From NCBI GenBank assembly GCA_030265395.1, contig JARFYF010000017.1, forward strand, positions 29,077,681 to 29,141,680: a stretch of 64,000 nucleotides of DNA. The letters are read 5' to 3'. Position numbers: made by a program. This DNA comes from Rhina ancylostomus. Its lineage: Eukaryota. Shown one piece after another: positions 18,001 to 27,000 of this stretch (position 1 is its first letter; each line of letters opens with the position of its first letter).

Positions 18001-21000
18001 ACAAGAGATGTGGCATAGTATTATGTATGGCCATTTAACCATGAACAAGAAAACACAGTAAATGGGCACTTTGAAAAGGTCATGTCATTGTGAGTTCAGC
18101 TGTCTCAGTTAGGTAAATTGGTCACCGCTTTATTATTCACTGGTGAGGGAGATTCATTAACTGAATCTCCCTTACAAAATTAATACTTTTATATAACCTT
18201 GTTGGACTTATAGATTGTTGATTGGCAATGTTCAATCACTGGCTTTAGAAACTAGGTATACCACTTCAGTTAATAGCATTCTGAAATAGGGCTAATGAAT
18301 CAGAAAGTAACAAAACTATGATAGAGAGATGTCCCTTTGAAATGTTATATGATGCAGAACATTATGTACATTGAGATCCGATTTTTCATGGTGGTCTTTT
18401 CAGGGATTTATGTGGATCAATTGCTTTAATTTTGAATGCTTAGACAGCAAGTCAGTGCATGTGTCAAACTATCTGCAACTGTTGATTACCCTGCAGGTGC
18501 TAAGTTGACAGAGCTAAAAATACAAGTTTTATCCTCATGCATGTGGCATCTGCTATAAATAATTTATGACATTAGTGTTTAAAGATCTGTTTTAAAATAC
18601 ACGAGACATGAACATTACATGAAAGGCTTTATGGGGTCAGATGTGCTCTTTATTTTTAATGAAAAATCCCTATTGGAGTATGCATTTTTCTATGCTTAGT
18701 CTAAGTGTGGAAGAAATGATGTAACTCTATAAATTATTTGAGTGTTACAGAAAATATTTAACAACATGGTTTAATAGGTATTATCCCATTCACTTGGCTG
18801 CTTGTGGTTTGAGAGGACTGAGGGAATCACACTGCTCCCAACCTTTTCTCACTTCACCCTTGGTCAATTCTTCAAGTGTTACACAGCATAATTTCCAAAC
18901 CTGCATTTTTGATATTGGTATTAAAGTTCTGCTGCTATATTACAATGTGTTTCATATTTTGTAAAAACACTACCACCTGAGACAATCTATTGTGTAATAA
19001 TCTAGCAAGAAACTAAGTCCTGCCAACATTCGCTAGTTACATTTACTTACGATCCACAAATGAAGTAAATAACATTCGGAATCTGCTGCGCCTACTGCCC
19101 TCGTCAGCCCACATGCGAACCACGCCAACTCCAGTTTGTAGCATTACGTCATTAGCTACAGTGCTACAGAATTTTGCCTTTAAGTTTTCGATGGCACTGC
19201 TCCCATCATACACGGCGACAAAATTCCTCTTGCATTCATTGGAGTGATCCATTTGATAGTCAATAAAGCGTAAATAAATCTACCAACAGAAAGATGTTGA
19301 ATTTCAATGACAGTTTTTTCTCTTTACTGTTCTTTCAAGATTATTGTTGCATAGCTTCACAGCTAAAGGAGGGTCAACAAACAGCAAGCCCTGTGTTCAA
19401 AATCATCAGAAGCATATCTCAAAGATGGTGATGATTTCACTTCTCCAACAAATGAATAATATTTTTGATTTTGACTGGATTTTTAGACATTTTAAATTTT
19501 GGATAGCAGGAGGTGAAATTCATGTGCATCAGTGTAGGCATACTAGGCCTGGAGATTCAGGATCAGGCTGGTATTTCTCGGATCATCCATGAAGCCTTCT
19601 TTATTCTGTGTCTGGAGAAAAATCCCTCCTGCACCAGTAAACCATCAATCTCCCACATTAAACCAATTTATTCATCTTGGATGAAGTTTTGGAAGTATTA
19701 CACAGAAACGAACAGATACAGAGGTATATATACTGAGCCCGAGCTTCATTAAATAGAAAATAAATCTCCTGTCAAGTGATAGACTTTCTTTAGATTGTAA
19801 TATAATTGCAGTTTGTGGCCTAGAAAATCTATTATAAAGTATAAAGATTTTGCGTACTACATGCTGGATTTTTTCAAAAATCCTATCACTAAATGCATCT
19901 AGCTACTTCACACATTAGTTGAACAAATTGAGAAAATTGTTTAGAGTCCTCAGTACGTTTGATGTGTATGTGCCGGGAGATTTCCTGGGAAACTCAGTGA
20001 CAACAAACGGTCAGAGAGTCATAGGGAAATAGACCATGGAAACAGGCCCTTCAGCCCATTGAATCCACACTCACTAGCAACTGTTCATTTACACTAATCC
20101 TACATTCAGCCCTTTTTCATTCTCCCCACATTGTCTTCAACTCCCCCCAGACTCTACCACTCACTTACACACTAGGGGCAATTTACAGTGGTCAATTAAT
20201 GTACCAACCTGCATGTCTTTGTGGTAACCAAAGGAAACCCATGCAGTCACAGGGAGAACATGCAAACTCCATGCAGACAGCACTGGTGGTCAGGATTGAA
20301 CCTGAGTCTCTGGTGCTATGAGGCAGCAGTTCTACTAGCTGAGCCACTGTGCTACTAGTTTGTAAATTGTGTGTGCAATGACATTTTAGCACCACTTGTG
20401 CAAGATTCCTTCACATCAAAACAGACCTGAACTGAATGACTGAGGCCTGTTTTGACATNNNNNNNNNNGTTAAAAGGTCCAATTTTGCCCAGTTCACTGC
20501 TAAAGAGTCCCAGATATCTTCCAGGTGAAGGCACACACACCTTCTGCCAATATGATAAGGATTGCTGATCAACTCTTTAAACAAATCTGACTCCAGCTGG
20601 ATTTGTTCTGCCTGACCTCCATCAATAATTGCCCACCTGACCAATTGTCTGTTCATCTGGACCGCAACCTCAACCCCAGTGTGTCTCTCCAGCCTGATCT
20701 GATATCTGACATGGGCACAAGTGTCTTAAACGCACATTCTGTAGCCAACTAATGCTCTTCACTAACTAATGAAAGGAAGTATGCAAGGCACCATTCTCTG
20801 CCACTTCCACTTCCACCATCTCCAATGGGACCCCACCACCAAGCATACCTTCCCCTCCCCACCTCTTTCTGCCTTTCACAGGGACCACTCTCTCCACGAC
20901 TCCCTAGTTCACTCCTTCCCCCCCCATCCCACCCATCTTGCTCCCACCCCGGGAACTTTCCACTGCCCCCACCATAGATGCAACACCTGCCCCTACACCA

Positions 21001-24000: not shown

Positions 24001-27000
24001 GCTGCTCACTGGAAGGAAGGAGTGGGAGAGAGATCATCATTAAGTTGGCCACAGCTATGATGGAAAACAGAAGAATTCTCCGGGTCACTTCACATTAAGT
24101 TGCCTCCCTCTTTCTGCAAGACCAAGATGTTACAACCAGGCTTTCCAGCTTTACACCTGCCTGCTCCTGGCATGGGACCAGAGAGCTGGAGCCGAGTCTC
24201 AGCAGCTCTTTCCTGTCAGCAGTTCTGGGCTTAGAGCTTGTGAAGCAGGTGACAGGTCCATCCATCCAACACCTGAGCTGCTCTTTGCCTTGGTCTACAG
24301 CAAAGGTCATTCACTTATTTATCCCATGCTGTTTGTGGGATCTTGCTTCCACAACTTGGCCACACATCTGATGGTTTATGGGAGCTCTCAGTGCTCTGGA
24401 AGGAGCTGACCCCCNNNNNNNNNNNNNNNNNNNNNNNNNNNNNNNNNNNNNNNNNNNNNNNNNNNNNNNNNNNNNNNNNNNNNNNNNNNNNNNNNNNNNN
24501 NNNNNNNNNNNNNNTTTTTTCCTTCTCTCTTCTTACCTTTTACCCATCCCCCAGTGGATCTGCTCTCCCCTCCTCCCCCACACCTGCCTATCACTATCTC
24601 TGACCTGCATCTACCTGTCACCACCCTGTGCCCACTCCCCTCCCCTCTTTTGTCCACATCACTGCTCTGCTTTTCCCTCCTATGTATGGGGTTTCCCCTT
24701 TTCCTATCTTCAGTCCTGAAGGAGGGTCCTGACCCAAAACATTGACTGCCTGCTTTTCTCCACAGATGCTGCCTGGCCTGCTGAGTTCCTCCATCATTAT
24801 CGTGTTTTTCATTTCTGCAAGGCATATTCTGTATCAGATGATCTTCTAACTGACAGAAAACTTTAGGCCTCATCCACAACAGAATTTTACTGCAAGGGTG
24901 TCTCCCATTAAACGAGAGCAACTCCTCTCCTCTGTCTCTCCGCAGCATCACTTAAGACATTCCCTTAAGTGCCAATTTAATTTGTAGGCCAGCACCTCCG
25001 CACTCAACAAAGTGTGCCACAGAAATTGTTATTACAAGTCCAACAATGGTATATGGCAATATACCATGATGAAACAAAATTAATTGACATAGTTTATTTC
25101 ATCCAGTTCTGCAATATTAAGGTAAGTGAGTTCTTTTAAGATCATGGGTGTACAGTGTATATGCTAACATTAAAAGGAAATCACTAGCACACAAACCTAT
25201 GATGCCATTGTGTTTAAATTCTTTACAGTTTCTTTGTGACAATGAACTAAAGAACAATAGAGGTATGAAAGGTACCTACCCATTCATTGTAAATCATTAA
25301 TACACAAAAATATTTCAGTTTGATTCTTTATAAAGGAAGATTGAACACAAATGTTAAATATATCTAGCATTTAATAACTTTTTATGTAAGATTACCGAAC
25401 CATCTCAAATTTCAAAAATTATATGTAATGGACACTATTACATGTATGTGATTGGCTTATATGTAGATATATTTTCCAGTGAAGCAATACAATGAAAATG
25501 CAACAAAGCTGTCAGAAAACACATTTATATTCTGTTACATGCCTGCTGATTACAAAGTATAGAAAGTTCAGTTGTATCTTAATTATTTTTTCCAGCATTA
25601 ATTGAACATGTCTCTTAGAGTCAATCTCTGAGTCTTAGCTAAGAAAAATTCCAGTAATCAATGTTGACTTGAGGATAAACTTAATTGTTCAATACTAAGC
25701 ATAAATGAAATAGCTTTTGCTCTTGGGATCCCACTGCCACTGGGTAATGAATGGAATTGTATCTATCATGCATGATGGAGTGACTTGTTTATCATACTTC
25801 AAAACAGAACAGCTTTTATTGTCAATGACAATTGAAGTTACGTATCAAAGTTACTATAATGCCCAAGCTATAATTAGTTGTTCAAACTATAAATGTTGGT
25901 ACTGATTGTATTATTCTGCAGGATATGACAGACATAATTGAAGAAAATTTCAAATGGCTGCCCAGCAAATAAGAAAATAGAATGGATTGAATATCACTTT
26001 TAAACAAAGTGGTAAAAGGTCAAATGACAGTTAACTTGCAAATTCCAATCTCCCTGCTTTCAGGGACAATTCCTATTAATTAGTATTGAATGAAAATAAA
26101 TGAATTTTGGTAGAGGAAGAAATCTTTTCAAATTTATGACCATTGCACACATGTATGGTTGCAAATGTATGTCAGCCAGGTAGGAATTTTTCTCTCTCAC
26201 ATCATTATTCATTATGCTATTTACGTAACATCATTTTTCTGTCATAGGTTTTAGTCTGTAATGTGTTGGGACTGTCATTAGTATTCATTAAGATGAGACT
26301 GTAGGTTATTTTAATATTAAATATTAGCCTATTACATCACATTTGATGACATTTTCTTTATAATCAAAACTGTAAAATGTACAGCTATATTTTCAGCTGT
26401 GAAATTAACTAACTTCCTCACACATTTTCACTAAATAAACACATTAGTCTGGAAAATACATGAGAAAGTGCACTAATACTTTTAATATGGTACCATAACA
26501 AAAGAAAAAGATGCCATAATAGACTGTGCTTAATTTCAATTGATTCTGATGGAGAACAGCAGCACAATGCATGGATTGCTACAGTGCCACAGTGACAACA
26601 CTCAATTGTAGAACAACCCAAAAAACTTCTGTTTGTTCTAAATTATCCATCAATTAACAGTTTAAAATGAAAGAAACATTGCCTTAAGAAAGTAATTGTT
26701 CTATTAGTATATTATTATTTTAAGAAGTGTGCCTGTGAGAGAAAACCACAAATTTTCTTTTATCTTTGATTTTTTTTCTTAACAGAGGAAGTTTAATTGA
26801 ATTTTCTTTATGCATAAATTGTGAGCACAGTTTGAAATTATTGCTAAGAAAGATCAATGACAGTAAGTTAAGTTTCCTTGCTATTGACTTTCAATCCTTT
26901 GAGTTTGAATTTATTTTAGAACATGAACAAATGTGGAGAAATCAGCAACTATTTCAGTGCCTCTCCAAACTTGTATCAGGACCAGCACTGAATCCTGGGA

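What the first reader, a model, noticed from the sequence alone, without database searches (positions are those of the whole stretch)
20469..24414. Intact HOMER EVH1 exons nested on the same strand inside NETO2 intron 6, on a gap-bounded segment
Seen: two stop-free Homer exons (157 and 132 nt) with canonical splice sites and a repeat-filled intron between them, so this is genomic DNA and not a retrocopy. They lie between NETO2 exons 6 and 7. I found neither Homer exon 1 nor exon 4 onward in the window. The segment starts at a 10-N gap, ends at a 100-N gap and looks more GC-rich than its flanks, but it carries the same repeat families, which argues against foreign contamination. Known: Homer genes are not NETO2 neighbours in human; both proteins act at postsynaptic glutamate-receptor complexes (Homer with mGluR1/5 and Shank, NETO2 with kainate receptors). 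Inference: the most likely explanation is a mis-scaffolded contig joined through repeats. If real, it is a same-strand nested partial duplication that could yield an EVH1-only, Homer1a-like dominant-negative product.
Basis: partly seen in the sequence, partly recalled or inferred. Interest (0 to 1): 0.72.

Follow-up and report, generated by a model that had tools for sequence, protein, structure and literature searches.

The report
Misplaced HOMER2 fragment inside NETO2 intron
Two genuine exons of a ray's HOMER2 gene sit on a small, gap-bounded contig inside a NETO2 intron, most likely because a fragmented draft assembly put that contig in the wrong place, so the finding is ordinary.

Summary
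On the minus strand, 23852-24008 (157 nt) and 21058-21189 (132 nt) are two intact AG/GT-bounded exons. They encode residues 3-98 of a Homer EVH1 domain. They lie on a 3,946-bp contig (20469-24414) between a 10-N and a 100-N gap. That contig sits in the phase-0 intron between NETO2 coding exons 6 (27146-27273) and 7 (19051-19279), same strand.

The exons are ray-type HOMER2: 96% identical to four rays, 79-83% to sharks, with five residues otherwise seen only in ray/skate references. NETO2 in the window shows the same affinity, so the contig is neither foreign nor human.

Nothing ties the contig physically to NETO2:
- Both junctions are gaps.
- Its GC (0.490) is 4.7 SD above all equal-sized stretches elsewhere (maximum 0.450).
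- Its GC3 is 0.67-0.77 against 0.40 for NETO2.
- In 7 of 7 cartilaginous fishes with both genes listed, HOMER2 and NETO2 lie on different chromosome-size records.

Best reading (about 0.82): an ordinary HOMER2 piece mis-placed by scaffolding. No read data could be checked.

Even if the placement is real, an EVH1-only product is not supported. There is no start codon and no C-terminal helix exon, and splicing from NETO2 exon 6 reads TGA at once.

The parts
20459..20468 (.). 10-N assembly gap, left junction of the segment
   Evidence: Not filled or looked up.
20469..24414 (-). 3,946-bp contig carrying a fragment of a ray-type HOMER2 gene; the smallest contig within the NETO2 span and the only one there without a NETO2 exon
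   Evidence: GC 0.490 against 0.373-0.401 for the other seven contigs.
24009..24414 (-). 3' end of HOMER2 intron 1 (406 nt), cut by the contig end; no exon 1
   Evidence: no ATGGG followed by GT. The only ATGGG (24327) is followed by ATAAAT.
23852..24008 (-). HOMER2 exon 2, 157 nt (1 nt + 52 codons), EVH1 residues 3-54
21190..23851 (-). HOMER2 intron 2, 2,662 nt, GT...AG, with a SINE-like piece (22119-22337) and two pieces of a second interspersed element (22498-22568, 22882-22908)
   Evidence: No Pfam family in 10 ORFs of the segment.
21058..21189 (-). HOMER2 exon 3, 132 nt (44 codons, phase 0/0), EVH1 residues 55-98
20469..21057 (-). 5' end of HOMER2 intron 3 (589 nt), cut by the contig end; no exon 4
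24415..24514 (.). 100-N assembly gap, right junction of the segment
   Evidence: Not filled or looked up.
27146..27273 (-). NETO2 coding exon 6 (CUB2, first part), 128 nt, ends in phase 0
19051..19279 (-). NETO2 coding exon 7 (CUB2, second part), 229 nt, starts in phase 0
19280..27145 (-). NETO2 intron 6 as scaffolded: 7,866 positions. 3,810 of them are contiguous with NETO2 exons (19280-20458 and 24515-27145), 3,946 are the HOMER2 contig and 110 are N.

Best explanation
The segment is an ordinary piece of this ray-like fish's own HOMER2 gene. It holds the end of intron 1, exon 2, intron 2, exon 3 and the start of intron 3. It assembled as a small separate contig. The scaffolder then dropped it into an unassembled stretch of NETO2 intron 6.

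The 'partial' gene is partial only because the contig ends inside introns 1 and 3. The 'nesting' is an assembly artefact and not biology.

Shown: the exons, their identity as ray-type HOMER2, the gaps, the composition jump, and the conflict with gene location in related species. Inferred: that the placement is wrong, and how it arose. The 10-N gap looks like a size-estimated read-pair join, and the 100-N gaps look like fixed-size later joins. That would put the small contig at the end of a primary scaffold, where weakly supported joins are common.
For: 1. No continuity. Both junctions are N runs. No HOMER2-bearing base is contiguous with a NETO2-bearing base.

2. The assembly is fragmented. 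There are 8 contigs of 337-16,044 bp in 64 kb, with gaps of 591, 10, 100, 100, 150, 100 and 9 N. The five larger contigs that carry coding sequence hold NETO2 exons in the right order. Only this contig carries another gene.

3. Composition.
- Contig GC is 0.490 (0.488 without the exons). 480 windows of the same size elsewhere give mean 0.390, SD 0.021, maximum 0.450; z = 4.7.
- GC3 is 0.67 (52 codons) and 0.77 (44 codons) for the Homer exons. It is 0.40 over 480 NETO2 codons, with single exons at 0.29-0.59.

4. The exons look like a working orthologue and not a decaying copy.
- They agree with 29 of 29 invariant columns in exon 2 (96 named references) and 29 of 29 in exon 3 (85 aligned).
- Exon 2 is identical at 51 of 53 aligned columns to all 6 references from Pristis, Mobula (3), Hypanus and Hemitrygon.
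- Exon 3 is identical at 42-43 of 45 columns to the same six.
- Against Leucoraja and Amblyraja, exon 2 scores 48-49 of 53.
- Against the 7 shark and 1 chimaera references, exon 2 scores 42-44 of 53.
- Five residues (K8, R20, L23, H28, P29) are rare among the 96 named references and shared with the ray/skate HOMER2 references: the five rays at all five positions, the skate representative at four (not H28). R20, L23 and H28 also occur in one or two non-ray references.
- Splice sites are canonical.

5. Location in relatives. HOMER2 and NETO2 are on records of different length in 7 of 7 cartilaginous fishes for which both were listed:
- Hypanus 46.4 vs 85.9 Mb
- Hemitrygon 44.9 vs 91.7 Mb
- Amblyraja 26.8 vs 51.0 Mb
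- Rhinoraja 27.6 vs 82.2 Mb
- Stegostoma 37.2 vs 68.0 Mb
- Heptranchias 33.6 vs 66.5 Mb
- Mustelus 63.0 vs 152.9 Mb

6. No fusion in public protein sets. 0 of 120 listed NETO relatives carry WH1. 0 of 120 listed Homer relatives carry CUB or LDLa.

7. False joins by scaffolders in fragmented assemblies are a described problem (bioRxiv 10.1101/025650; passages read).
Against: - No reads, mate pairs, depth or Hi-C data could be examined, so the misplacement is inferred and not shown.
- NETO2 intron 6 really does have unassembled sequence at this point, so something belongs there.
- The contig has the same strand as NETO2 and shares two interspersed repeat families with both flanks.
- The composition step is not razor-sharp. 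The last ~450 bp of each flanking contig are also GC-elevated: 0.452-0.454 at 20001-20500 and 0.525-0.448 at 24501-25000. GC then falls to 0.26-0.33.
- The 480 control windows overlap, so z overstates independence.
- Exon 2 has Ser where 95 of 96 named references have Pro (position 24 of the exon translation). This could be read as relaxed constraint in a spare copy.
- In 4 of 7 teleosts with both genes listed, a homer2(-like) gene and neto2 share a record of the same length. Chromosome-level linkage of the two genes therefore exists somewhere in vertebrates.
Confidence: 0.82

Rival explanations
1. The placement is real. A DNA-level segmental duplication or transposition copied at least 4 kb of HOMER2 (exons 2-3 with intron 2) into NETO2 intron 6 in this lineage, on the same strand. 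It is recent enough to keep the donor's GC content and intact exons.
For: - It is genomic DNA with an intron, not a retrocopy.
- It has the same strand as the host.
- It comes from the same lineage as the host.
- It has one near-unique substitution, Ser for Pro in 95 of 96 named references.
- A recent duplicate would be collapsed by a short-read assembler into one contig linked to both loci, which could give exactly this picture (inference).
Against: - No junction sequence exists.
- There are no disabling changes, and the exons agree with 58 of 58 invariant columns.
- The copy's ends coincide with contig ends, not with recognisable insertion boundaries.
- Related species place the genes on different chromosomes in 7 of 7 cases.
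- Scaffolding errors in assemblies this fragmented are far more common than intronic gene-fragment insertions (prior; for the general point).
Confidence: 0.09
2. HOMER2 is a true close neighbour of NETO2 in this species after a lineage-specific rearrangement. The contig belongs in the region but was interleaved at the wrong spot.
For: - The scaffolder found some link between this contig and the NETO2 contigs (inference from the scaffold itself).
- Teleosts show homer2(-like) and neto2 on the same record in 4 of 7 species.
Against: - In 4 of 4 rays and skates with both genes listed, the genes are on different records.
- No other HOMER2 exon occurs in the 64 kb.
- The GC content differs strongly from the whole window.
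Confidence: 0.04
3. The contig is contamination from another organism's DNA, either another ray or human.
For: The odd composition.
Against: - Exon 2 shows the same graded affinity as the window's NETO2: stingray/sawfish, then skate, then shark.
- Exon 2 carries five residues otherwise seen almost only in ray/skate references.
- The contig shares two interspersed repeat families with the flanks.
- Against the mammalian Homer2 chains in the PDB, exon 2 differs at 10 of 52 positions, compared with 2 of 52 against rays. I therefore do not take it for human.
Confidence: 0.03

Closest known systems
HOMER2 (homer scaffold protein 2) of rays, e.g. the named NCBI models of Pristis pectinata, Mobula hypostoma, Hypanus sabinus and Hemitrygon akajei (P0127-P0131)
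   Same: Exon 2 translation is 96% identical and exon 3 translation 93-96% identical. Five rare residues are shared with the ray/skate references. The exons cover EVH1 residues 3-54 and 55-98.
   Different: Only two exons are present. Exon 1 and exons 4 onward (the end of EVH1, the linker and the coiled coil) are not in the window. There is one near-unique Ser for Pro. In those species HOMER2 is not on the NETO2 chromosome.
Homer1a / Ania-3 type short Homer forms (EVH1-only, activity-induced; recalled from the literature, no call)
   Same: The fragment would also lack the coiled coil.
   Different: Short Homer forms keep the start codon and the whole EVH1 domain. This fragment has neither the start codon nor residues 99-111 of the crystallised domain. 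It is HOMER2-type, not HOMER1-type.
Nested genes: a gene lying inside an intron of a host gene
   Same: As scaffolded, the exons lie within a host intron on the same strand.
   Different: There is no contiguous sequence linking guest and host, and the guest is not a complete transcription unit.
False joins or misplaced small contigs in scaffolds of fragmented short-read assemblies
   Same: A small contig bounded by gaps on both sides, with foreign composition, a foreign gene and a conflict with synteny in relatives. The general phenomenon is described in bioRxiv 10.1101/025650 (passages read).
   Different: This is not demonstrated at read level here.

Membership tests
Homer family (EVH1/WH1 scaffold proteins), HOMER2 orthologue | WH1/EVH1 domain match above the curated cut-off | tested here: met
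   Each exon searched on its own: PF00568 at 47.7 and 47.5 bits against cut-off 22.4, profile positions 9-55 and 61-101 of 111.
Homer family (EVH1/WH1 scaffold proteins), HOMER2 orthologue | Collinear alignment with solved Homer EVH1 domains, best to Homer2 | tested here: met
   All 7 distinct PDB sequences matched for each exon are Homer 1/2/3 EVH1. The best is Homer 2b, 1i7a, at residues 3-54 and 55-98.
Homer family (EVH1/WH1 scaffold proteins), HOMER2 orthologue | Lineage-specific residues of ray/skate HOMER2 | tested here: met
   K8, R20, L23, H28 and P29 are rare among 96 named references. The five ray references carry all five; the skate representative carries four (not H28).
Homer family (EVH1/WH1 scaffold proteins), HOMER2 orthologue | Complete gene: start codon, end of EVH1, linker, C-terminal coiled coil | tested here: not met
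   For 17 of 17 HOMER2 references, only exons 2 and 3 were significant in the window. No ATGGG+GT lies upstream in the contig. The contig ends inside introns 1 and 3.
Homer1a-like EVH1-only short form | Own start codon and complete, foldable EVH1 domain | tested here: not met
   Residues 1-2 and 99-111 of the crystallised domain are absent. Entry from NETO2 exon 6 (phase 0) reads TGA as the first codon. The joined two-exon product was not searched or folded.
Nested gene within a host intron | Uninterrupted sequence from host intron into the guest gene and out again | tested here: not met
   Both junctions are N runs, 20459-20468 and 24415-24514.
Processed retrocopy | Intronless copy of an mRNA | tested here: not met
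   A 2,662-nt GT-AG intron lies between the exons.
Scaffolding misjoin / misplaced contig | Gap-bounded contig whose composition and gene content disagree with both neighbours | tested here: met
   GC 0.490 against 0.390 +/- 0.021, maximum 0.450. GC3 0.67/0.77 against 0.40. It is the only contig within the gene span without a NETO2 exon.
Scaffolding misjoin / misplaced contig | Conflict with gene order in related genomes | tested here: met
   Different record lengths for HOMER2 and NETO2 in 7 of 7 cartilaginous fishes. This test is at chromosome level only.
Scaffolding misjoin / misplaced contig | Read pairs, long reads or depth contradict the join | not testable with these tools

The most novel reading that the evidence does not exclude
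The placement is real. This ray lineage carries a recent DNA-level copy of HOMER2 exons 2-3 inside NETO2 intron 6 on the sense strand.

Exon 3 (132 nt, phase 0/0) matches the phase-0 host intron. It could therefore be exonised as an in-frame 44-residue insert in the NETO2 CUB2 domain. Use of exon 2 would end the NETO2 reading frame at once (TGA), giving a truncated, secreted-type NETO2.

That would be an unusual case of one postsynaptic glutamate-receptor scaffold gene donating exons to another.
Probability: 0.08. Interest if true: 0.45.

Novelty: not a real feature. Interest (0 to 1): 0.12.

Why it matters
The main value is as a warning. Gene predictors run on this scaffold could produce a chimeric or broken NETO2 model and a HOMER2 model lacking exons 2-3. 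Synteny analyses could record a false HOMER2-NETO2 adjacency.

If the nesting were real, it would be a modest curiosity: a gene-fragment insertion between two postsynaptic glutamate-receptor scaffold genes. It would have no evident way of making a functional EVH1 protein.

Tried and rejected
- **Retrocopy:** rejected, because an intron is present.
- **Human or foreign contamination:** rejected on graded identity, five ray-type residues and shared repeats.
- **Further Homer exons in the window:** none found with 17 references at word size 2 and E up to 10.
- **Exon 1 (ATGGG followed by GT) in 24009-24414:** none.
- **Overlap or similarity between the two flanking contig ends** (19900-20458 against 24515-25100), which would have shown that no room exists for the contig: no match.
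- **Repeat sharing as a test of origin:** uninformative. Only 0-10% of any 3,946-bp control window matches the rest of the window, against 1.3% for the segment.
- **Coding potential of the rest of the segment and of the ORFs next to the gaps:** 0 Pfam families in 10 + 3 ORFs.
- **Structured RNAs:** 0 Rfam matches at gathering score in the whole window. 0 tRNAs in 19000-26000.
- **Tandem repeats:** only four trivial arrays of 16-23 bp.
- **Literature:** 8 papers hold both 'Homer2' and 'NETO2'. Judged from titles and abstract openings only, they are expression or gene-list papers, and none is about gene arrangement.
- **Frame slips of my own:** searches were mis-framed translations and carry no evidence.
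- **Not done:** the spliced exon 2 + exon 3 product was not searched, folded or modelled as one chain. No complex prediction was attempted.
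Full report
**What is there**

The window is a fragmented scaffold. It has eight contigs of 337 to 16,044 bp, separated by N runs of 591, 10, 100, 100, 150, 100 and 9 bases. The finding's segment, 20469-24414, is one 3,946-bp contig between the 10-N run (20459-20468) and a 100-N run (24415-24514).

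Two exons lie on its minus strand:
- 23852-24008 (157 nt: one base completing a codon, then 52 codons)
- 21058-21189 (132 nt: 44 codons)

Each has a pyrimidine-rich tract and AG in front and GT behind (GTcagg and GTgagg). Between them is a 2,662-nt intron.

I searched the two exons separately throughout. The joined two-exon product was not searched, folded or modelled.

**They are Homer exons**

Each translation alone matches Pfam WH1 well above the cut-off (47.7 and 47.5 bits against 22.4). Each aligns without gaps to solved Homer EVH1 domains. All 7 distinct PDB sequences matched by each exon are Homer 1, 2 or 3. The best is Homer 2b (1i7a), at residues 3-54 and 55-98 of a 111-residue domain.

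**Which Homer, and whose**

In a database-wide search with exon 2, the closest full-length proteins are HOMER2 of rays at 96% identity: Pristis pectinata, Mobula hypostoma, Hypanus sabinus and Hemitrygon akajei. Skates follow at 92%, then sharks and the chimaera at 79-83%.

A tblastn of 17 named cartilaginous-fish HOMER2 proteins against the window gives the same order for both exons:

| References | Exon 2 (of 53 columns) | Exon 3 (of 45 columns) |
|---|---|---|
| 6 non-skate ray references | 51 | 42-43 |
| Leucoraja, Amblyraja | 48-49 | long alignments running into the intron, not comparable |
| Rhinoraja | 50 of 58 (its model has a different N-terminus) | not comparable |
| 7 sharks + 1 chimaera | 42-44 | 40 for Mustelus |

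Among 96 named references, five residues of exon 2 (K8, R20, L23, H28, P29) are rare. The five ray representatives carry all five and the skate representative carries four (not H28). Three of these positions also occur in one or two non-ray references. The window agrees with all 29 invariant columns of exon 2 and all 29 of exon 3.

The only oddity is Ser at position 24 of the exon translation, where 95 of 96 references have Pro.

The window's NETO2 exons show the same affinity. For exon 6, Hypanus and Hemitrygon score 42 of 44, skates 39-40 of 44, and six sharks and the chimaera 33-36 of 44. So the contig comes from the same kind of animal as its neighbours, a ray-like fish. I do not take it for human. 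Exon 2 differs from the mammalian Homer2 chains in the PDB at 10 of 52 positions, against 2 of 52 for rays.

**The host gene**

NETO2 runs on the minus strand across the window. Its last exon is 92% identical to the Scyliorhinus torazame representative of a 61-member cluster.

| Coding exon | Coordinates (minus strand) |
|---|---|
| 1 | about 48731-48696 |
| 2 | 45292-45221 |
| alternative, 78 nt | 36814-36737 |
| 3 | 30694-30551 |
| 4 | 30404-30156 |
| 5 | 27428-27384 |
| 6 | 27273-27146 |
| 7 | 19279-19051 |
| 8 | about 17935-17825 |
| 9 (last) | 7472-6891 |

The intron is phase 0: exon 6 ends ...TCT AAA and exon 7 starts ATT TAT. As scaffolded it has 7,866 positions. Only 3,810 of them are contiguous with NETO2 exons.

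**Is the nesting real?**

Four lines of evidence speak against it.

1. There is no sequence continuity at either junction.

2. The contig's composition is foreign to the locus.
   - GC is 0.490 (0.488 without the exons).
   - 480 equal-sized windows elsewhere give mean 0.390, SD 0.021, maximum 0.450; z = 4.7. These windows overlap, so they are not independent.
   - GC at third codon positions is 0.67 and 0.77 in the Homer exons. It is 0.40 over 480 NETO2 codons, with single exons at 0.29-0.59.

3. The exons have the conservation of a working orthologue, and the 'partial' gene stops at contig ends inside introns 1 and 3, not at any recognisable biological boundary.
   - No other Homer exon is in the 64 kb. 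For 17 of 17 references, all other hits had E of 0.095 or more.
   - The 406 bases upstream of exon 2 hold no ATGGG followed by GT.
   - A whole HOMER2 gene cannot fit. Its exons 4-9 would have to lie among or beyond the last three NETO2 exons, and they are not there.

4. In all 7 cartilaginous fishes for which the searches listed both genes, HOMER2 and NETO2 sit on records of different length: Hypanus, Hemitrygon, Amblyraja, Rhinoraja, Stegostoma, Heptranchias and Mustelus. This includes 4 of 4 rays and skates.

In addition, no public protein model joins the two families. 0 of 120 listed NETO relatives carry WH1, and 0 of 120 listed Homer relatives carry CUB or LDLa.

**How the artefact probably arose (inference)**

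The gaps of 591, 150, 10 and 9 N look like size estimates from read pairs. The three 100-N gaps look like fixed-size joins from a later scaffolding step.

On that reading, the HOMER2 contig was attached by a 10-N join to the end of a primary scaffold that ends with NETO2 exons 7-8. That scaffold was later joined, correctly, to the next NETO2 scaffold.

Small terminal contigs attached by a few pairs are a known weak point. Scaffolders are reported to introduce many false joins in fragmented assemblies (bioRxiv 10.1101/025650; abstract and passages read; its supplementary tables not seen).

**What speaks for a real insertion**

- No reads could be examined.
- Intron 6 does contain unassembled sequence at this spot.
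- Strand and lineage fit the host.
- The contig shares two interspersed repeat families with both flanks, but as old copies that do not lie at the contig's ends:
  - SINE-like 22119-22337 against 20152-20357, inverted, 66% over 227 columns
  - 22498-22568 against 24737-24807, 68%
  - 22882-22908 against 24713-24739, 85%
- The last ~450 bp of each flank are GC-elevated too (0.45-0.53), before GC falls to 0.26-0.33.
- The Ser-for-Pro change could mark a spare copy.
- In 4 of 7 teleosts with both genes listed, a homer2(-like) gene and neto2 share a record of the same length: Megalops, Conger, Arapaima and Muraenolepis. They do not in Synaphobranchus, Electrophorus and Brachyhypopomus.

I put a misplaced contig at about 0.82, a real recent duplication or transposition at about 0.09, a true neighbour wrongly interleaved at about 0.04, and contamination at about 0.03.

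Even if the placement were real, an EVH1-only, Homer1a-like protein is not supported.
- The two exons encode residues 3-98 only. The start codon (exon 1) is absent, and so are residues 99-111 of the crystallised domain. From recall, those residues form most of the C-terminal helix that closes the fold.
- Exon 2 begins with the third base of a codon while the host intron is phase 0. A NETO2 exon 6 to Homer exon 2 splice would therefore read TGA as its first codon.
- Only exon 3 (132 nt, phase 0/0) is frame-compatible with the host. It would insert 44 residues into the CUB2 domain.

**Other checks that added nothing**

- No Pfam family in 13 other ORFs of the segment and gap edges.
- No Rfam family in the whole window.
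- No tRNA in 19000-26000.
- Only trivial tandem repeats.
- No similarity between the two flanking contig ends.
- Repeat sharing within the window is too low everywhere (0-10%) to discriminate.
- Eight papers mention both Homer2 and NETO2. By title and abstract opening, none concerns gene arrangement.

**Verdict**

The functional alternative is not supported. The feature is an ordinary HOMER2 gene fragment in the wrong place. Interest is low.

Human chromosome positions of the genes and the biology of Homer1a are recalled and come from no call.

Noticed in passing
window 6891-48731, minus strand: All coding exons of a ray-type NETO2 appear to be in the window, in order across five contigs. This includes an alternative 78-nt exon (36737-36814) that matches the longer isoforms of sharks and skates. 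The exon 1 match is weak (12 residues, E 0.2).
   Followed up: partly
(other species, not the window): In 4 of 7 teleosts listed for both genes (Megalops cyprinoides, Conger conger, Arapaima gigas, Muraenolepis orangiensis), neto2 and a homer2(-like) gene lie on records of identical length, meaning the same chromosome or scaffold. This holds in 0 of 7 cartilaginous fishes. It may be an old or teleost-specific linkage. Distances between the genes are unknown.
   Followed up: no
window 23936-23938 (codon 24 of the exon 2 translation): Ser where 95 of 96 named Homer references have Pro, two residues after the invariant Trp of the NW motif. The only other Ser is in a Brienomyrus homer2-like model. 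It could be a species difference, a sequencing error or relaxed constraint.
   Followed up: partly
hits P0125 (Pangasius djambal) and P0126 (Miniopterus natalensis): These two models score about 163 bits at only 79% identity, against 102 bits for the 96% ray hits. That suggests the exon-2-encoded stretch occurs twice in those models, possibly as duplicated exons from assembly or annotation errors.
   Followed up: no
hits P0007, P0009, P0010 (Acipenser); window 52677-52739, minus strand: Sturgeon NETO2 models are fused to FG-GAP-type domains (PF01839, PF13517, PF23122). Two of them are flagged UNVERIFIED_CONTAM by the source. Residues 397-417 of P0009 give a weak hit (76% over 21 residues, E 2e-4) upstream of NETO2 exon 1 in the window.
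   Followed up: no
window 20751-21000, 23501-23750, 24515-24750: Strongly C-rich stretches on the plus strand (C = 0.41-0.49), both in the segment and just beyond the 100-N gap. No alignable similarity was found between the stretch beyond the gap and the segment.
   Followed up: partly
window N runs: There are two classes of gap: odd sizes (591, 150, 10, 9) and exactly 100 N (three times). This suggests two scaffolding stages. All three 100-N joins keep NETO2 exon order.
   Followed up: no
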